Below the pieces are notes generated by a model. That model was given only the letters and a program-made list of their open reading frames with translations. It was not told the DNA's origin and did not search any database. Position numbers and translations under genes: made by a program. From a virus, in the UHGV virus genome UHGV-1735138: a stretch of 14,855 nucleotides of DNA; one strand, given 5' to 3'. Below, one piece after another: positions 189 to 14,855 of this stretch; the first letter of the stretch is position 1, and each line of letters opens with the position of its first letter.

Positions 189-1217
189 TCACGGGTTTCT
201 GCTCAGAACTGTGACATCCAGCACCGGAATATCCAGAGTCGGAGTTACTGCGGGTTTGCGATCATACGTCAGCACTTGCGCCTCTGTTTTGTGACCAGAG
301 AACAACTGCTTTTCTTTACTGCTTCCGTCGTAGTCTGAGATCCCCTTCGCTTTTAAATCGTGAAACGTTCCCGTAATCGGGTAGCCCAGCTTTTCACTTG
401 CCGCCGCCCTGGCTTTACGCCAGATATCGTTAAATCCGGTATAGCTGTATTGCCCGCCATATTTGTTACAGACCACGAAATGTTGTCCTCCCAACGATTT
501 CGCCTGCTCAAGTGCGAACGTCAGTCGCTCTGAATACTGTTTGATCTGCTTTTTGCCAGTCTTACCCTGTTGGATAAACAACCCCTTACTCATTACCTGA
601 TCCCACGTCAGCTTTCGTATATCGCCGATCCGCGTGGCGCACAGATAGGCGATCTCCATCGCGCACTGTAAAACGGGAGATGCCTCCTGATAAATTGCGA
701 TATATTCCTCGTCCGTGAAATAGTAGTCGCGGGGCTTGAGGGAAAATTTACTGACGCCCTGGCATGGATTCCCTTTTACGTATCCGCGTTCGTATCCCCA
801 GCGGAATACTCGCGACATACTGGCTTTTTCATGGTTCGCCTGTGTTTTGCTTTTCAGCCCCCGCTTGTCCATATACAGCCGCACGTGAGCAGGTTTTATG
901 TTGTCGGCTTTCATTTTCCCGAACGCTGCGAGTAATTTCTTCTGGTGCTGCAGGTAATCCTTTTGTGTACGCTGACTGAGTTCCAGATAGTAGGTGCTGC
1001 TAAGAAATTTGTTCCAGAGTTTACTGAACGTCATGACATCAATAGCATCATTCAGGATCTCTTCGTATTTCACCCATACCTGAGCAATTGACAGATCTTT
1101 AATTTTACCCAGCGTAATACACTCTCGGGGCGTTGGTTTGAAATAATAGCTGTATTTGTTTTTATAAACGCGGGGTGGCAGCTTATTATCTTCCGCGCTT
1201 TTTCGTGTTCTGCTCAT
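189..1217 (-). CDS. int: Tyrosine-type phage integrase, lambda Int family (342 aa)
   Basis: N-terminus MSRTRKSAEDNKLPPRVYK resembles lambda Int MGRRRSHERRDLPPNLY; length and position beside tRNA fit; start overlaps upstream stop (ATGA). Confidence 0.9.
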   Translation of the reverse strand: MSRTRKSAEDNKLPPRVYKNKYSYYFKPTPRECITLGKIKDLSIAQVWVKYEEILNDAIDVMTFSKLWNKFLSSTYYLELSQRTQKDYLQHQKKLLAAFGKMKADNIKPAHVRLYMDKRGLKSKTQANHEKASMSRVFRWGYERGYVKGNPCQGVSKFSLKPRDYYFTDEEYIAIYQEASPVLQCAMEIAYLCATRIGDIRKLTWDQVMSKGLFIQQGKTGKKQIKQYSERLTFALEQAKSLGGQHFVVCNKYGGQYSYTGFNDIWRKARAAASEKLGYPITGTFHDLKAKGISDYDGSSKEKQLFSGHKTEAQVLTYDRKPAVTPTLDIPVLDVTVLSRNP

Positions 1218-1432
1218 CAGATTGCATCAAAATTTGGTTGTTCTTCTTCGGCAATCTGCACGGACCTTGCTCCGGACAGCGCAGCGTTTACATGCGTCCA
1301 TGTGACGCGAGGTCGCCCATCGCGGCGTTTTACATAAGAGATCCCGGCACGGGTCAGGGCGCCGCATTGTTTTGACGGGAACTGGTAGCCGGTCAGTTCA
1401 ACCAGTTCCTCGTCGTTTAACAGATCGTTCAT
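1217..1432 (-). CDS. xis: Excisionase-like small DNA-binding protein (DUF4224-type), 71 aa
   Basis: Immediately upstream of int and coupled to it; MNDLLNDEELVELTGYQFPSKQ...RRDGRPRV pattern typical of small proteins beside integrases; start preceded by AGGAAAGACC. Confidence 0.65.
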   Translation of the reverse strand: MNDLLNDEELVELTGYQFPSKQCGALTRAGISYVKRRDGRPRVTWTHVNAALSGARSVQIAEEEQPNFDAI

Positions 1433-1592
1433 GGTCTTTCCTCATTATGTAGCTTATTGCGTCATCTGCCACATGGCAGGCACGGGCAATATCAGACTCG
1501 GTCAAGGCCTGTTTCCTGACGCTGGCCGACAGTCGGCCAATTTTGATATCAAATGCGGAGAGCAGAGTTGCTCCCGGTTGCCATCGCAGCAT
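1398..1592 (-). CDS. Hypothetical small protein (about 64 aa from the internal ATG at 1592)
   Basis: Track ORF 1398..1622; the ATG at 1592 has AGGAGG 6 nt upstream, so it is the likelier start. Overlaps xis 5' end by 35 nt. Confidence 0.35.
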   Translation of the reverse strand: MLRWQPGATLLSAFDIKIGRLSASVRKQALTESDIARACHVADDAISYIMRKDHERSVKRRGTG

Positions 1593-1641
1593 TGTGATCC
1601 TCCTGTTACTGGTGAATCGCAATGCTAGCGATGGTGAGTTT

Positions 1642-1824
1642 TTATTTCTGATTAGGCGTAATCAGTTCTGGTGGGGGGAATGCCGATTTCTCCCGCGTGA
1701 CCTTAATGTTTTCTGGCAGGTGTAGCCCAAGTTCGCAGCGACTCCGTGCTTCAATAATGCCATTGGTACCATCGGCAAGTACCAGGTGAACCGCGTCACC
1801 ACGCTTTAATGTGAGTTTAAGCAT
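1642..1824 (-). CDS. CsrA-like small RNA-binding protein (60 aa), putative
   Basis: By-eye alignment to E. coli CsrA: MLKLTLKRGD vs MLILTRRVGE, and LGLHLPENIKVTREK vs IGVNAPKEVSVHREE, with the Arg at the CsrA R44 position conserved; same length as CsrA; coupled to upstream gene (TAATG). Confidence 0.5.
   Translation of the reverse strand: MLKLTLKRGDAVHLVLADGTNGIIEARSRCELGLHLPENIKVTREKSAFPPPELITPNQK
1648..1665. repeat. Palindrome CTGATTA-GGCG-TAATCAG, copy 1 of 2
   Basis: Perfect 7-bp inverted arms with 4-bp spacer; near-identical element at 6613-6630. Confidence 0.5.
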
Positions 1825-2393: not shown

Positions 2394-4606
2394 GCTGTTT
2401 GCTCCTGTGCGGCGGCGAGAGCGGCGAGGCGTTCGGTTTTAATGTCGGTGATACGGCGCAGACGTGATCCCAGATACGATGAATATTCTTTATCACCTTT
2501 GGCTTCCGCTGCTTTCCGGTGTACATCCACCTCGCGGGCGATGAGGCCAAATACCTTGTTTACTTCGTTGGTGGTTACCGCAGCAGACAGTGTGTTGGCA
2601 ACGTTGATAAGCTTCTCATCCAGTTCCTTACGAAGACGGGTGGCGTCTTCCGCATTCTCGCTGGCATTCTTGATATCAAACTCAGCTTTATTCCTCTGGC
2701 GGTATTCCGGATTGTCGTACAGGCCCATGAAAATATCGGCGCTGAATCCGAGAGGGGATAGCGCTTTCTTAACAGCATCCGTCCAGGATTTCTTCGGCGC
2801 TTCGCCGTCGCTTGTTGGTCCGTATTTAGTGTCGTAGATATAAGGTGTGCATCCGTAAGCCTCGGACTCACCACGAACACCATTCAACATGTACCAGACG
2901 CGTACCTTCATGGTGTGATGCATTTCGCTGAGATAGCCGCCTGTGCCATCGGGGATAATTTCCCAGGATAAGAGGCCATCACTTCCTTTCACTTTTCGCA
3001 ATATCGGTGCGCCTTTATCAAAACGCTCTTCCAGCACCTCTACACCCCAGCCAATACCAAACGGTCCAAATTCGCGAGTCGCTTTCATCGCTATATAAGT
3101 GCCGTTGATGGATGTGCCGCCGCCGTTCTGAGAGAAAGCACTCGTGAAGCGCTCATCGGTTTTGAATACGTTCTTCCACAATGCCAGGTTATCCGTGTCG
3201 TCTGAGTCCTTTAACTCCGTTTCGATAGCTGAGATTGCATTCTGCCGCTTGTGCTCTTCGGTATGGATCCGCTCAACCAGCGCGTCAACGTTTTGCACCA
3301 GGTCTTTTACCTGCTCGCTAAGTTTTTCTTGTGGAGGAGTCTCTTCTGCCGGGGTAATAGCTGCAGGTTCCCTCTGAGATACGGCGTTATTTTCAGGTAC
3401 GTCATACACATGGCGAGGCGTGACAAACTGCTCACGCAACTGCTGCAAACTACGTTCTCCAGCATTTGCTGCTTCGCTTTTTTCGACCTGATTTGAGGGT
3501 GTTTCTGACATCATCCCATCAATTGAGAATCGCCCGCCGCCGTGGTTGGTGACTTTTACATCATCCTTTGGTGCTGTTTCCTTTGGCTTCTCTTCAACAG
3601 CATTTGCATCACGCTGCCCGTTAGCTTGCAGCCAGTTGTCGATGTGACTGCGCAGGGATTGCGGGAAGTGGTACGTGTCTTTTGCGGGGGCGCTCTGAAT
3701 AACACCGAATACTGATGCGCGGTCATAGGCAAGGATCTGATCCGTTGTGCGCAAGGCCATTGACCAGCGTTTAAAATCCTCCCGATCCTGGCTGATTATT
3801 TCGTCTGCCGCTTTCAGGACGCTGGGGGTGATTTTTTCCGGGCCAACGGGTAACAGGGCGCAGGCAATTTCACGATCCAGTGTGGCGTGAGTCTGTTGGT
3901 AAGGACGTGCGGATGCTGTTTCTGGTTTTACCTCCGGCAGCATTTCATCGCGTTTACCGGGATTCTCTACCCATTTTTTTATAAATTTGGAGATAGTCCA
4001 ACTGGTCGGGTTTTGTTCCTGGGTATCGCAACTTGCCAAAATTGCATGTACCAGATTATTCAATCCAGCAATATGCATGTACTCGATGGGCTTACACGCC
4101 ACCATGGCATCAAGAACGATGCGGTTAAATGCGTCAACCTCATCCTCACTGTCAGTATCACTGTTGTCGAGCATCTCCAGGTATTCACGCGTCTGCGCAA
4201 GCAATTCACTGTCGACTTCGTTGGCGTCGTGGCTGAACAGCAGAACGGCGGCGAATCGTTCACGAGCCGGCAGTTTCATCAGGTCGTTAACCTGTGCGAT
4301 ATCTGCTGAACCGCTATCTACAACGGGGGTGTTAACTACCCATTTTTCGCCATCAAAACTGTGTTCTGTGGCGAACGTCTCATCAAACTCACCAACGCCT
4401 GGGCGCGGTTGGCCCGGGGCATCTTCCCAGATTTTAGGTTTGAAATAGTTGTCGCCGTGGTCAGGGTAGGCTTCCCACAATTTGCCGATGATGATGTTCT
4501 CGGCAACTTTTTTGTTAGGGGCGTCGATGGCGATGGCCAGCGCCGGGATCGCGCCGTTTTTGAGCGCGCCTTTTTTCGCTTCTAACAAGCCGTTAAAAAT
4601 GGTCAT
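2390..4606 (-). CDS. Rad52/Sak-family single-strand annealing protein with a roughly 490-aa N-terminal extension (738 aa)
   Basis: C-terminal region (about residues 490-640) aligns by eye to the Rad52 N-terminal domain: FGPFGIGWGVEV vs FGYNGWAHSI; VRVWYMLNGVRGESEAYG vs VRVQLKDGSYHEDVGYG; KKSWTDAVKKALSPLGFSADIFMGLYD vs [25 protein letters not shown]. Start preceded by AGGAAAGACC. Confidence 0.8.
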   Translation of the reverse strand: MTIFNGLLEAKKGALKNGAIPALAIAIDAPNKKVAENIIIGKLWEAYPDHGDNYFKPKIWEDAPGQPRPGVGEFDETFATEHSFDGEKWVVNTPVVDSGSADIAQVNDLMKLPARERFAAVLLFSHDANEVDSELLAQTREYLEMLDNSDTDSEDEVDAFNRIVLDAMVACKPIEYMHIAGLNNLVHAILASCDTQEQNPTSWTISKFIKKWVENPGKRDEMLPEVKPETASARPYQQTHATLDREIACALLPVGPEKITPSVLKAADEIISQDREDFKRWSMALRTTDQILAYDRASVFGVIQSAPAKDTYHFPQSLRSHIDNWLQANGQRDANAVEEKPKETAPKDDVKVTNHGGGRFSIDGMMSETPSNQVEKSEAANAGERSLQQLREQFVTPRHVYDVPENNAVSQREPAAITPAEETPPQEKLSEQVKDLVQNVDALVERIHTEEHKRQNAISAIETELKDSDDTDNLALWKNVFKTDERFTSAFSQNGGGTSINGTYIAMKATREFGPFGIGWGVEVLEERFDKGAPILRKVKGSDGLLSWEIIPDGTGGYLSEMHHTMKVRVWYMLNGVRGESEAYGCTPYIYDTKYGPTSDGEAPKKSWTDAVKKALSPLGFSADIFMGLYDNPEYRQRNKAEFDIKNASENAEDATRLRKELDEKLINVANTLSAAVTTNEVNKVFGLIAREVDVHRKAAEAKGDKEYSSYLGSRLRRITDIKTERLAALAAAQEQTA

Positions 4607-4636
4607 TGGTCTTTCCTCATTACAGGTCAGTGGTTT

Positions 4637-4966: not shown

Positions 4967-5050
4967 AGCGACTCCTTGGTGATGTATACTCGGGACCGAT
5001 CAGCGAATATTGATCAGCTTCCATAGCGTCAGTGTCGTTGGTCTTTCCTC

Positions 5051-5875: not shown

Positions 5876-5921
5876 AAAATAAAGGCAATGCATTGAAAAC
5901 ATTGCCTTTATTTTATTTTTT
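5876..5921. terminator. Bidirectional intrinsic terminator downstream of the repressor gene
   Basis: Perfect 15-bp inverted repeat AAAATAAAGGCAATG / CATTGCCTTTATTTT (5876-5890 and 5900-5914), 9-nt loop, then TTTTTT on the plus strand; repressor stop codon lies in the right arm. Confidence 0.7.
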
Positions 5922-6326
5922 GGTGGGGGTTAGTTTCTTTCTGGTAACCAGTAACTCTTCAAATAAACGATTAAAGTTTTCAACTTTATCTTCTAATTCA
6001 ATTAGTTGCTTTTCTTTTTCTGACTCGGGTAATGAATCAAATAACTCTAACAATCTTTTTTGACGTGAATCCAGCTCTGTTGGTAATTCGTCTACCGGAG
6101 TTGGCGCCTGGTCTTCGTCACCAAAAAGCAGCCATGTGGCAGAACACTTAAGTGCATTGGCCAAAGCCAGCAAGTTCTGACCCTTTGGTTCATTTTGTCC
6201 GCTTTCCCATTTAAAAACGCTCACACTCGATCTTCCAACCATATCAGCAAGCTGTTGTTGGGTTAGACCAAGCTGTTTGCGTCTTTGAGATAAACGGTCG
6301 CTAAGCATCAAATTCTTCATCCTCAT
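5913..6326 (-). CDS. Phage repressor, HTH XRE-family, no LexA-like peptidase domain (137 aa)
   Basis: N-terminal LGLTQQQLADMVGRSSVSVFKWESGQNEP is a classic HTH; divergent from the Cro-like gene; C-terminal 70 aa acidic and coiled-coil-like, too short for an S24 domain. Confidence 0.85.
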   Translation of the reverse strand: MRMKNLMLSDRLSQRRKQLGLTQQQLADMVGRSSVSVFKWESGQNEPKGQNLLALANALKCSATWLLFGDEDQAPTPVDELPTELDSRQKRLLELFDSLPESEKEKQLIELEDKVENFNRLFEELLVTRKKLTPTKK

Positions 6327-6394: not shown

Positions 6395-6592
6395 ATGAAA
6401 ACAGAGACGGTTATTAGTTTTTTTGGTTCAAAGACAGCCACAGCCAAGGTGCTGGGTATATCTCAAGTGGCGGTTACTCGTTGGGGGGCAACAGTTCCTG
6501 AAAAGCGAGCTGCTCGACTCGACCATATCACTAACGGAGCACTGAAATATGACCCGACTTTTTACGATGTTCCAAAACATGAAAAAGCTTAG
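6395..6592 (+). CDS. cro: Cro-like repressor, P22 Cro family (65 aa)
   Basis: SFFGSKTATAKVLGISQVAVTRWGATVPEKRAARLDHITNGALKY closely parallels P22 Cro HFGTQRAVAKALGISDAAVSQWKEVIPEKDAYRLEIVTAGALKY (from memory). Confidence 0.85.
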   Translation: MKTETVISFFGSKTATAKVLGISQVAVTRWGATVPEKRAARLDHITNGALKYDPTFYDVPKHEKA

Positions 6593-6612
6593 CAAAGGGC
6601 GGCTTATTACAT

Positions 6613-6630
6613 CTGATTAAGCGTAATCAA
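6613..6630. repeat. Palindrome TGATTA-AGCG-TAATCA followed by TTTTT, copy 2 of 2; possible weak terminator or nut-like site downstream of cro
   Basis: 6-bp inverted arms with 4-bp spacer then ATTTTTAG; about 20 of 22 bases match the element at 1645-1667. Confidence 0.4.
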
Positions 6631-14355: not shown

Positions 14356-14855
14356 GTAGCGTTAAATCTTCAAATTCCAGCTTACCTGCGCCGTCGGCAA
14401 TAAATACACCATTCATTATCAGAAGTTGGCAAGCAAGGATTATCAGGAACCATTTTCCGTAGCGTTTTTTTAGAGCGATTTCAGCTTCAAAATCTTTGTT
14501 GTTGAGTTGTTTGCGCTCATGCTCGGTATCAAGTGAACTCACCTGTTTCACAGATGTGAACTCGGTCAAGATTTTACTCTCAGTACGGGTGACTTGTTGA
14601 GATGGTGTAGCAGTTGGAGTTCTTTTGCTAGACGCAGCTACAGCCATTTTGCGAGCTTCGGCAGCTCTTTTTCTGGCTATTCCGTGAATACGGACAGATG
14701 GTTTTTTGGGGTCGTGCGAAATCTTTTGCAGAGTTGAAGTTTCATCAGGGGACTGAACCGGAGTTTCATCGTCCTCCGGCTCAACCTCTTCTGCTAACTG
14801 ACGGTGTAGGTTGAGGGAATCCTTCAGTCGGCGTGCAACTTCCTGTTTGAAACGG
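14276..14855 (-). CDS. Membrane protein with two C-terminal TM helices; 5' end probably beyond the window
   Basis: Track ORF starts at M 14647, but the frame stays open upstream to the window edge (...RFKQEVARRLKDSLNLHRQLAEEVEPEDDE...); hydrophobic segments WFLIILACQLLIMNGVFIA and GGTLTEVFGLVLVVTKYLF. Confidence 0.5.
   Translation of the reverse strand, partial: RFKQEVARRLKDSLNLHRQLAEEVEPEDDETPVQSPDETSTLQKISHDPKKPSVRIHGIARKRAAEARKMAVAASSKRTPTATPSQQVTRTESKILTEFTSVKQVSSLDTEHERKQLNNKDFEAEIALKKRYGKWFLIILACQLLIMNGVFIADGAGKLEFEDLTLQLYMGGTLTEVFGLVLVVTKYLFKRK

What the first reader, a model, noticed from the sequence alone, without database searches (positions are those of the whole stretch)
1645..1667. 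Two copies of a 22-bp palindromic element in different operons
CTGATTA-GGCG-TAATCAG (1648-1665, inside the 3' end of the CsrA-like gene) and TGATTA-AGCG-TAATCA (6614-6629, just downstream of cro and followed by TTTTT) match at about 20 of 22 positions. The cro-proximal copy is where a nutR or tR1-like element would sit in lambda. The pair could be hairpins bound by a phage factor or binding sites for a dimeric protein.
Basis: seen in the sequence. Interest (0 to 1): 0.4.

Follow-up and report, generated by a model that had tools for sequence, protein, structure and literature searches.

The report
Two binding sites for phage YdaT regulator
The two near-identical palindromes are most likely the DNA sites where the prophage's own lysogeny regulator YdaT (the stand-in for lambda CII) binds, one placed to switch on the repressor gene and one, not described before, to switch on the integrase operon.

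Summary
CTGATTAGGCGTAATCAG (1648-1665) and CTGATTAAGCGTAATCAA (6613-6630) are the only two exact matches in the window to TGATT-N6-AATCA (0.03 expected by chance).

That motif is the published, footprinted operator of YdaT, the CII equivalent of prophages CP-933P and Rac. The window encodes a YdaT-family protein 21 nt downstream of copy 2.

In 84 related loci (1.35 Mb), all 158 exact motif hits fall at these two positions. Half-sites never change, the central 4 nt vary, and the sites do not track swapped cI, cro, int or xis modules.

Copy 1 lies in coding sequence, yet its four half-site codons show essentially no synonymous variation. That indicates a DNA-level constraint.

On the minus strand each box is followed after 20-21 nt by a conserved TAnnnT hexamer. 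This puts the box centre near -41.5, a class II activator position. I read the sites as pRE-like (copy 2) and pI-like (copy 1) leftward promoters; this step is inferred.

An equivalent site sits 51 nt upstream of xisR in E. coli K-12 Rac. I found it in no paper.

The nut/terminator hairpin reading is not supported.

Verdict: a new member of a known kind, with a testable extension. Interest is moderate.

The parts
1648..1665 (.). Box 1: CTGATT-AGGCGT-AATCAG, a YdaT-box-type inverted repeat at the 3' end of the 60-aa ORF, upstream (minus strand) of ORF64-xis-int
   Evidence: It is present at the same place in 74 of 74 related loci that contain this region and in phage ZF40. Its codons are frozen at synonymous sites.
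6613..6630 (.). Box 2: CTGATT-AAGCGT-AATCAA, a YdaT-box between cro and ydaT
   Evidence: It matches the published TTGATT-N6-AATCAA at 11 of 12 positions. It is present 15-34 nt upstream of ydaT in 84 of 84 loci.
6652..7128 (+). ydaT: CII-like transcriptional activator, the proposed binder of both boxes
   Evidence: Pfam YdaT_toxin PF06254, 1.9e-15. PHROG 163 'CII-like transcriptional activator', 5.5e-42. PDB hits 3c4r and 8bt1. Recognition-helix residues Q62, R66 and W67 are conserved with Rac and CP-933P YdaT.
6586..6594 (-). Predicted extended -10 (TGC-TAAGCT) of a leftward pRE-like promoter; overlaps the cro stop codon; the hexamer starts 21 nt after box 2
   Evidence: TAnnnT is found at 20-21 nt in 39 of 39 distinct flanks, 30 of them with TGn, and in 0 of 20 on the other side of the box; background is 2.9%. 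Inferred; no TSS data.
1622..1627 (-). Predicted -10 (TAGCAT) of a leftward pI-like promoter, 20 nt after box 1; predicted start near 1615-1617
   Evidence: TAnnnT is found at 20 nt in 33 of 34 distinct flanks, and in 0 of 32 on the other side of the box. Inferred. Its conservation may also come from the leader hairpin.
1580..1633 (-). Leader hairpin: the 5' arm contains the predicted -10, the 3' arm contains the SD and ATG of ORF64
   Evidence: -27.3 kcal/mol, z = -6.4. 86.7% of cells are paired against 27-56% in slid controls. 40 cells have a change on both sides against 18.8 +/- 4.1 in shuffles, 0 of 500.
1398..1592 (-). ORF64 (MLRWQPG...), the first gene after box 1; function unknown
   Evidence: phrog_27062, 4.5e-34, full length. 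SD and ATG are conserved in relatives.
1217..1432 (-). Excisionase-like gene (DUF4224)
   Evidence: PF13986, 1.5e-16. PHROG 1266 excisionase, 2.4e-30.
189..1217 (-). Tyrosine integrase, next to tRNA-Ser (14-103)
   Evidence: PF00589; tRNA.
6395..6592 (+). cro-like gene
   Evidence: P22_Cro PF14549, 7e-20.
5913..6326 (-). cI-like HTH repressor, the presumed target gene of the pRE-like transcript
   Evidence: HTH_3, 1.4e-14.
1642..1824 (-). 60-aa ORF (phrog_2482) whose last codons carry box 1

Best explanation
Both palindromes are operator sites for the YdaT protein encoded at 6652-7128. YdaT is the functional equivalent of lambda CII in this ZF40-like lambdoid prophage. It is a tetramer whose dimeric HTH pairs read TGATT-N6-AATCA.

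After infection, transcription from pR produces Cro and YdaT.

YdaT bound at box 2, centred about -42 from a leftward extended -10 that overlaps the end of cro, would activate a pRE-like transcript. That transcript runs antisense through cro into the cI-like repressor gene.

YdaT bound at box 1, centred about -41.5 from a leftward TAGCAT, would activate a pI-like transcript for ORF64, excisionase and integrase.

What is shown here: the motif identity, the adjacent YdaT gene, strict positional conservation, and a DNA-level constraint. What is established in homologues only: YdaT binding to this motif and YdaT-dependent leftward activation. What is inferred here: the promoter geometry and the int-operon target.
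For: 1. DNase footprints define TTGATT-N6-AATCAA (CP-933P) and ATGATT-N6-AATCAA (Rac) at the ydaS/ydaT junction. Two YdaTs only 30% identical cross-bind each other's boxes. The Rac box is needed for up to 29-fold activation of leftward transcription.
2. The window has exactly two exact core matches, against 0.03 expected. One is at the cro/ydaT junction.
3. The adjacent gene belongs to the YdaT family and keeps the recognition-helix Q..RW residues.
4. In 84 loci with YdaT at 48-99% identity (1.35 Mb), all 158 exact core hits lie at these two positions: 84 of 84 and 74 of 74, and none elsewhere. Phage ZF40 has both.
5. The half-sites are invariant. The central 4 nt take 8 variants at each site.
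6. In 52 distinct genes, the box-1 codons are CTG 51/52, ATT 52/52, AAT 52/52 and CAG 52/52. Every other fully conserved degenerate column uses 2-5 codons.
7. The boxes stay the same when cI/cro (31% identity or unrelated) and int/xis (49%/42%) are swapped.
8. TAnnnT lies 20-21 nt after each box on the minus strand only: 33 of 34 and 39 of 39 flanks, against a 2.9% background.
9. Rac-type phages, whose YdaT is only about 33% identical, have the same two-site layout. K-12 Rac has TTGATT-ATTAAT-AATCAG 51 nt upstream of xisR. 47 of 47 Rac-like loci with xisR have it.
Against: - There is no binding or transcription data for this element.
- The outer base of the half-site is C, not the T or A of the published boxes.
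- In Rac the published YdaT-activated promoter (PracR4, predicted with BProm) is about 190 bp from the box, not adjacent to it. The class II geometry is therefore my inference.
- Both -10 hexamers overlap other constrained features: the cro stop codon, and the 5' arm of the leader hairpin that pairs with the ATG. Their conservation is not clean evidence for a promoter.
- Box 1 precedes the excisionase as well as the integrase, unlike lambda pI. An Int-only output is not obvious.
- Five loci with a lambda-type CII instead of YdaT still carry a perfect box 1. Their left arms are nearly identical to those of YdaT-bearing phages, so they look like recent recombinants.
- The related loci are not independent samples.
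Confidence: 0.72

Rival explanations
1. YdaT binds both boxes, but the function is not promoter activation at each site. One tetramer, which has two DNA-binding faces, could bridge the two boxes 5 kb apart and loop out the early-left operon and immunity region. Alternatively, bound YdaT could act as a roadblock or repressor: autoregulating ydaT and the replication genes at box 2, and blocking pL read-through into xis-int at box 1.
For: The YdaT tetramer binds two operator duplexes in ITC and native MS. The Rac paper proposes bridging of distant sites. There are exactly two sites per genome, at a constrained spacing of 4.4-5.5 kb. Box 2 lies between pR and ydaT.
Against: The minus-strand-only TAnnnT at a fixed 20-21 nt from both boxes is not explained by looping or roadblock. 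In Rac, ydaT expression did not change when the box was mutated, while leftward transcription rose 29-fold. Rac-type phages have a different spacing (about 7.2 kb) and often a third site.
Confidence: 0.15
2. The elements act as RNA hairpins. Either they form a nutL/nutR-like pair recognised by an antitermination factor, or copy 2 is a weak tR1-like intrinsic terminator between cro and the next gene.
For: Both can form 6-7 bp stems with 4-nt loops. Copy 2 is followed by a partly conserved T-run. Its position after cro resembles lambda nutR/tR1.
Against: - Copy 2 RNA folds at -3.0 kcal/mol, z = -0.4, and 57 of 200 shuffles fold as well. The terminator scan does not report it.
- Copy 1 on the leftward transcript is followed by AAATAA, not by Us.
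- The loops differ in transcript orientation and vary among relatives, while the stems show no compensatory change.
- In ZF40 and Rac only 5+5 bp with a 6-nt spacer survives. That is too weak for an RNA stem but fits the protein motif exactly.
- Copy 1 is about 4 kb from any pL.
Confidence: 0.05
3. The sites are bound by another dimeric protein, such as CI, Cro, Xis, Int, IHF, or the product of the 60-aa ORF or ORF64, rather than by YdaT.
For: No binding assay has been done for this element. Box 1 persists in five loci that lack YdaT. AATCAATTTTTAG at box 2 is one base off the IHF consensus WATCAANNNNTTR (my reading of the sequence).
Against: - The boxes are unchanged across swaps of cI, cro, int and xis.
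- Rac phages lack the 60-aa ORF and ORF64 but have the same two-site layout.
- The symmetric invariance of both half-sites does not resemble an IHF site, and box 1 breaks the IHF core.
- The same motif is footprinted by YdaT in two systems.
Confidence: 0.05
4. The pair is a chance resemblance, or a passive relic of recombination at module junctions.
For: The left edge of box 2 coincides with a mosaic breakpoint between this window and relative L001.
Against: 0 of 200 shuffles reach the observed count. Conservation is 100% in 84 loci, with variable flanks and frozen synonymous sites.
Confidence: 0.01

Closest known systems
YdaT-box of E. coli K-12 Rac (ATGATTCATGAAAATCAA) and operator OM of CP-933P (TTGATT-N6-AATCAA); PMC11879457, PMC9986795
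   Same: It is the same 5+5 bp core, TGATT-N6-AATCA. Copy 2 occupies the same place at the cro(ydaS)/ydaT junction. The same protein family is encoded next to it, with the recognition-helix R-W conserved. The expected output is also the same: leftward, repressor-directed transcription.
   Different: The outer base is C rather than T or A. The centre is A-NNNN-T, giving a 7-bp arm. The box lies 21 nt upstream of the ATG rather than on it (Rac) or inside the end of ydaS (CP-933P). The second, int-proximal copy is not described in those papers. No flanking OL/OR-type weaker sites were looked for in detail.
Lambda CII-dependent promoters pRE, pI and paQ (textbook knowledge)
   Same: The logic and the map positions match. 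One site lies between cro and the cII-equivalent gene and reads leftward towards cI. One lies at the int end of the left arm and reads leftward into int. In both systems the activator site sits over a poor -35 region, upstream of a modest -10.
   Different: Lambda CII reads a direct repeat, TTGC-N6-TTGC; this element has an inverted repeat read by an unrelated fold (POU-like HTH). Box 1 lies upstream of xis, and of an extra ORF, rather than inside xis. No third, paQ-like site exists in this family (0 other hits in 1.35 Mb), although Rac-type phages often have a third site.
Lambda nutR/boxB and tR1
   Same: It lies just downstream of cro, is a small hairpin-capable palindrome, and has a second copy in the leftward operon.
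   Different: The stem is weak and AT-rich. The loop is variable rather than specific. The loops are not identical in transcript orientation. No boxA was seen. Copy 1 is at the distal end of the left operon.
Lambda sib retroregulation of int (for the leader hairpin seen in passing)
   Same: An RNA stem is complete only in read-through (pL-type) transcripts and absent from activator-dependent (pI-type) transcripts. It could therefore make int-operon expression depend on which promoter made the RNA.
   Different: Here the stem is at the 5' end and covers the SD and ATG, so translation is occluded and the stem is cut off by the position of the start site. Lambda sib is a 3' RNase III site cut off by a terminator. 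This comparison is entirely inferred.

Membership tests
YdaT-box (operator of YdaT-family CII equivalents) | Inverted repeat with core TGATT-N6-AATCA (published: T/A-TGATT-N6-AATCA-A) | tested here: met
   Both copies match the 10-bp core exactly. Copy 2 matches 11 of 12 and copy 1 matches 10 of 12 of the 12-bp consensus (with for the consensus).
YdaT-box (operator of YdaT-family CII equivalents) | A YdaT-family protein with a conserved recognition helix is encoded in the same element | tested here: met
   PF06254, 1.9e-15. phrog_163, 5.5e-42. PDB 8bt1 and 3c4r. Q62, R66 and W67 align with Rac H56-R57-W58 and with the CP-933P Arg.
YdaT-box (operator of YdaT-family CII equivalents) | Located at the cro(ydaS)/ydaT junction | tested here: met
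   Copy 2 lies between the cro stop (6592) and the ydaT ATG (6652), and does so in 84 of 84 relatives. Copy 1 does not meet this feature; it is a second location, upstream of xis/int.
YdaT-box (operator of YdaT-family CII equivalents) | Direct, sequence-specific binding by YdaT (EMSA or footprint) | not testable with these tools
   Only comparative evidence is available: invariant half-sites, a variable spacer, frozen synonymous sites, and independence from the cI, cro, int and xis modules.
YdaT-box (operator of YdaT-family CII equivalents) | YdaT-dependent activation of leftward transcription | not testable with these tools
   The geometry is consistent: TAnnnT lies 20-21 nt from each box on the minus strand only. 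There is an experimental precedent in Rac and CP-933P only.
Lambda-type CII site (pRE/pI) | Direct repeat TTGC-N6-TTGC straddling the -35 region, with a Phage_CII (PF05269) protein | tested here: not met
   The repeat is inverted and has a different sequence. The regulator is PF06254, not PF05269. The element works like this family but is not a member.
nut site (boxA-boxB) of N-type antitermination | A boxB hairpin with the same specific loop in both early transcripts, placed promoter-proximally | tested here: not met
   In transcript orientation the loops are CGCC versus AGCG. The loops vary among relatives. Copy 1 is at the distal end of the left operon. The stems are weak.
Intrinsic (Rho-independent) terminator | A stable GC-rich stem followed by a U-run | tested here: not met
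   Copy 2 folds at -3.0 kcal/mol, z = -0.4. The terminator scan does not list it. Copy 1 has no U-run on the leftward transcript.

The most novel reading that the evidence does not exclude
YdaT-type CII equivalents may control integration through a previously unrecognised int-proximal box. It is conserved from ZF40-like phages to E. coli K-12 Rac, where it lies at NC_000913.3 1413503-1413520, 51 nt upstream of xisR.

In the ZF40-like family this promoter may be coupled to a 5' 'sib-like' switch. The -10 hexamer lies inside the 5' arm of a covarying leader hairpin that sequesters the SD and ATG of the first gene of the ORF64-xis-int operon.

If so, read-through transcripts from pL would be translationally silent (or would be cleaved), while YdaT-initiated transcripts, which start inside the arm, would be translated.
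Probability: 0.3. Interest if true: 0.6.

Novelty: new member of a known kind. Interest (0 to 1): 0.4.

Why it matters
This assigns a concrete function to a conserved pair of sites in a prophage carried by about a tenth of complete E. coli genomes (519 of 5426).

It extends the known YdaT regulon from the repressor promoter to the integrase/excisionase operon. That completes the analogy between YdaT and lambda CII.

It also gives a directly testable prediction in E. coli K-12. The roughly 100-fold rise of xisR/intR transcripts when RacR is depleted (PMC11014345) may be partly YdaT-dependent, through a site that published work did not examine.

Finally, the published Rac data could be re-read in terms of a box-proximal promoter: TATGAT lies 20 nt from the YdaT-box.

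Tried and rejected
- Close phage matches by megablast: only the tRNA-Ser end matched. Relatives were found through E. coli genomes and by protein search instead.
- nut/terminator reading: tested by folding and by the terminator scan, and rejected.
- The sigma-70 consensus scan is uninformative here: 6 promoter-like sites against 5.8 expected. It does not detect either proposed activator-dependent promoter, as expected for promoters with poor -35 regions. The promoter claim rests on conserved spacing, not on that scan.
- 'CsrA-like' identity of the 60-aa ORF: Pfam, BLASTP, PDB phmmer, hhalign (1.5%) and a single-sequence AF2 model with Foldseek all failed to support it. A monomer model of a possible intertwined dimer is a weak test, so the question stays open.
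- Co-occurrence test (does box 1 disappear where YdaT is absent?): it gave only recent recombinants (L183-L187, lambda-type CII) and deletion remnants (L219, L220). It is uninformative rather than contrary.
- HK639 and Klebsiella phage 5 LV-2017 (YdaT-like proteins, 30-32% identical): they have only one-mismatch sites near the start of their cII genes and no int-proximal site. The two-site layout is therefore not universal.
- IHF-site reading: rejected on symmetry and because box 1 mismatches the IHF core.

Full report
OBSERVATION

CTGATTAGGCGTAATCAG lies at 1648-1665 and CTGATTAAGCGTAATCAA at 6613-6630. They share 16 of 18 core positions, and 29 nt at 83% by the repeat finder.

A pattern derived from them is never matched as often in 200 shuffles. 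More tellingly, the independent literature motif TGATT-N6-AATCA occurs exactly twice in the window, against 0.03 expected.

CONTEXT

The window is the left and early part of a lambdoid prophage integrated next to tRNA-Ser(cga). The genes, in map order, are as follows.
- Integrase, 189-1217, minus strand.
- DUF4224 excisionase, 1217-1432, minus.
- A 64-aa ORF, 1398-1592, minus (phrog_27062).
- A 60-aa ORF, 1642-1824, minus (phrog_2482).
- Gp157/Gam-like gene.
- A 738-aa exonuclease.
- A cI-like HTH repressor, 5913-6326, minus.
- A P22-Cro-like gene, 6395-6592, plus.
- A YdaT-family protein, 6652-7128, plus (PF06254, 1.9e-15; phrog_163 'CII-like transcriptional activator', 5.5e-42; PDB 8bt1 and 3c4r).
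- A replication protein and a DnaB-type helicase.

Relatives are present in 519 of 5426 complete E. coli genomes. Pectobacterium phage ZF40 and phage BUCT708 show the same gene order.

Box 1 forms the last codons of the 60-aa ORF. Box 2 lies 20 nt after the cro stop and 21 nt before the ydaT ATG.

IDENTIFICATION

YdaT is the functional equivalent of lambda CII in some lambdoid prophages.

For CP-933P YdaT, DNase I footprinting defines a 5'-TTGATT-N6-AATCAA-3' inverted repeat at the ydaS/ydaT junction. The protein is a tetramer that binds two such duplexes (PMC9986795).

For E. coli K-12 Rac, the footprinted 'YdaT-box' is ATGATTCATGAAAATCAA, lying over the ydaT start codon. The Rac and CP-933P proteins are 30% identical yet cross-bind and cross-activate. 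The box is required for up to 29-fold activation of leftward ('reverse') transcription, which raises racR expression (PMC11879457). In CP-933P a leftward promoter between ydaS and ydaT is silent unless YdaT is expressed (PMC8630535).

Box 2 of the window matches the published 12-bp consensus at 11 of 12 positions and sits in the same place. Box 1 matches at 10 of 12, with a symmetric C...G at the outer positions. The window's YdaT keeps the recognition-helix residues, NNNRQKIF-RW, which aligns with Rac H56-R57-W58.

COMPARATIVE TEST

I collected 80 IMG/VR loci with YdaT at 48-99% identity, plus one E. coli relative, ZF40 and BUCT708. The set totals 1.35 Mb.

It contains 158 exact core hits, and every one is at one of two positions. 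One position is 15-34 nt upstream of ydaT (84 of 84 loci). The other is at the 3' end of the 60-aa ORF (74 of 74 loci that contain it). There are none elsewhere.

The half-sites CTGATTA / TAATCA(G/A) do not vary. The central four bases take eight variants at each site. In ZF40 the palindrome shrinks to exactly TGATT-N6-AATCA. This is the pattern expected of a protein site with a non-contacted spacer. It is not the pattern of an RNA hairpin with a specific loop.

Box 1 is in coding sequence, so I checked codon usage in 52 distinct gene sequences. All other fully conserved, degenerate amino-acid columns use 2-5 codons. The four half-site codons are CTG 51/52, ATT 52/52, AAT 52/52 and CAG 52/52. 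The single exception is TTG, which creates the canonical TTGATT. The constraint is therefore on the DNA.

The boxes do not track other modules. The E. coli relative L001 has an unrelated cro, a cI 31% identical, and int/xis 49%/42% identical, yet carries identical boxes. The homology breakpoints lie right at the left edge of box 2 and at the xis start codon.

HOW IT PROBABLY WORKS (INFERRED)

Read on the minus strand, both boxes are followed by a TAnnnT hexamer at a fixed distance.
- Box 1: TAGCAT, 20 nt after the box, in 33 of 34 distinct flanks.
- Box 2: TAAGCT or a close variant, 20-21 nt after the box, in 39 of 39 distinct flanks. 30 of these are preceded by TGn, an extended -10.

On the plus-strand side the counts are 0 of 32 and 0 of 20. 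The background rate is 2.9%. This spacing puts the box centre at about -41.5 or -42.5, the classical class II activator position.

The box 2 promoter would start near 6579 and read antisense through cro into the cI-like gene. This is the pRE analogue, as shown experimentally for Rac and CP-933P.

The box 1 promoter would start near 1615-1617. That is about 23 nt upstream of a conserved SD and ATG (1592) of ORF64, which is followed by the overlapping excisionase and integrase genes. This is the pI analogue.

CAVEATS

- Both hexamers overlap other constrained features: the cro stop codon and a leader hairpin arm.
- In Rac, the authors assign activation to a BProm-predicted promoter about 190 bp from the box. 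Their reporter also contained the box-proximal TATGAT that I find 20 nt from the Rac box.
- Box 1 precedes xis as well as int, unlike lambda pI.

GENERALITY

Rac-type phages, whose YdaT is about 33% identical, have the same layout.

E. coli K-12 Rac has three exact core hits in 13 kb, against 0.04 expected.
- The published YdaT-box.
- TTGATT-ATTAAT-AATCAG, 51 nt upstream of the xisR ATG, with TAACAT 21 nt further on.
- A third site inside ydaW.

Rac-SA53 and an Actinobacillus phage show the same arrangement. In 80 Rac-like IMG/VR loci, 80 of 80 have the ydaT box. 47 of 47 loci with xisR have the xis-proximal box at the same 51-nt offset.

None of the YdaT papers I could search mentions an int- or xis-proximal site. 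One paper reports that xisR and intR transcripts rise about 100-fold when RacR is depleted, a condition in which YdaS and YdaT are induced.

The layout is not universal. HK639 and Klebsiella phage 5 LV-2017 have only one-mismatch sites near their cII genes and none near int.

RIVALS

- RNA hairpin, nut site or terminator. The stems are weak; copy 2 folds at -3.0 kcal/mol with z = -0.4. The terminator scan does not list either copy. The loops vary and differ in transcript orientation. No compensatory change occurs in the stems.
- A different binding protein. This is disfavoured by the module swaps and by the Rac comparison.
- Looping or roadblock by YdaT. This remains possible and may coexist with activation, because the tetramer has two DNA-binding faces.
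- A weak point for my reading. Five loci with a lambda-type CII (PF05269) and an O-type replication gene keep a perfect box 1. Their left arms are almost identical to those of YdaT-bearing phages, so they look like recent recombinants.

SIDE FINDING RELEVANT TO BOX 1

The leader between the predicted -10 and ORF64 forms a hairpin at window 1633-1580 on the minus strand. It folds at -27.3 kcal/mol, z = -6.4.

In 29 distinct sequences, 86.7% of cells are paired, against 27-56% when the partner columns are slid. 40 cells have a change on both sides, against 18.8 +/- 4.1 in shuffles (0 of 500). G-U pairs are tolerated on the minus-strand RNA.

The 5' arm contains the TAGCAT hexamer. The 3' arm contains the SD and the ATG. 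A transcript that starts at the predicted box 1 promoter would lack the 5' arm. A read-through transcript from pL would carry the whole stem. This suggests promoter-dependent translation or processing of the int operon, similar in logic to lambda sib. It is untested.

VERDICT

The finding is real and is explained by known biology. Copy 2 is a new member of the YdaT-box class. Copy 1 is a second, conserved YdaT-type site in a position that has not been described, the lambda pI analogue, and the same kind of site is present in E. coli K-12 Rac. I score novelty as a new member of a known kind, and interest as moderate.

Noticed in passing
window 1580-1633 (minus strand): A strong leader hairpin (-27.3 kcal/mol, z = -6.4) with compensatory changes across relatives. 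Its 5' arm contains the predicted -10 of the box 1 promoter. Its 3' arm contains the SD and ATG of ORF64. It may make translation of ORF64-xis-int depend on which promoter made the RNA.
   Followed up: partly
L088 2504-2521 (NC_000913.3 1413503-1413520) and L088 12119-12136 (1423118-1423135): E. coli K-12 Rac has two further exact YdaT-type boxes besides the published one. One lies 51 nt upstream of xisR. One lies inside ydaW, and it recurs about 2.43 kb downstream of ydaT in roughly 40 of 80 Rac-like loci, so it may be a paQ analogue. Neither appears in the YdaT papers I searched.
   Followed up: partly
window 4604-4618(-), 5036-5050(-), 7156-7170(+), 9588-9602(+); variant at 1430-1446(-): An identical 15-nt translation-initiation motif, GAGGAAAGACCnATG, sits at the starts of at least four genes (0 expected by chance). 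It includes a 19-nt perfect inverted pair at 4600-4618 / 9588-9606. It may be a shared RBS cassette or a module-junction sequence.
   Followed up: partly
window 7767-7818: Three to four tandem 12-bp repeats (ACAGAGATTACT-like) lie inside the replication-protein gene 7389-8156. They look like origin iterons, as in lambda ori within gene O.
   Followed up: no
window 11193-11342 and 14208-14357: A 150-nt direct repeat (83% identity) flanks a roughly 3-kb segment. The segment holds an LprI-domain ORF (11411-12334, minus) and a 339-aa ORF with no Pfam match (13011-14030, plus). It may be a cargo insertion or the end of the prophage.
   Followed up: no
window 1642-1824 (minus strand): The 60-aa ORF (phrog_2482) resembles CsrA in size and in two in-register stretches: MLKLTLKRGD versus MLILTRRVGE, and PENIKVTREK versus PKEVSVHREE. 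No method gave statistical support (hhalign 1.5%, Foldseek nothing).
   Followed up: partly
L183-L187 (e.g. L183 3427-3801, 10160-10177): Five viral contigs combine this left arm, including a perfect box 1, with a lambda-type CII (PF05269) and an O-type replication gene instead of YdaT. They look like recent mosaics and would be natural test cases for whether box 1 needs YdaT.
   Followed up: partly
L003 42241-42258 (phage HK639): A perfect TTGATT-TTCTGG-AATCAA lies in the nin region of HK639, between HK639_61 and ninB. The cro/cII junction of that phage has only a one-mismatch site.
   Followed up: no
window 1523-1539: A perfect 7-bp-arm palindrome, TGGCCGACAGTCGGCCA, lies inside ORF64. It is followed by a T-rich run on the plus strand and scores as terminator-like for transcription antisense to the int operon.
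   Followed up: no
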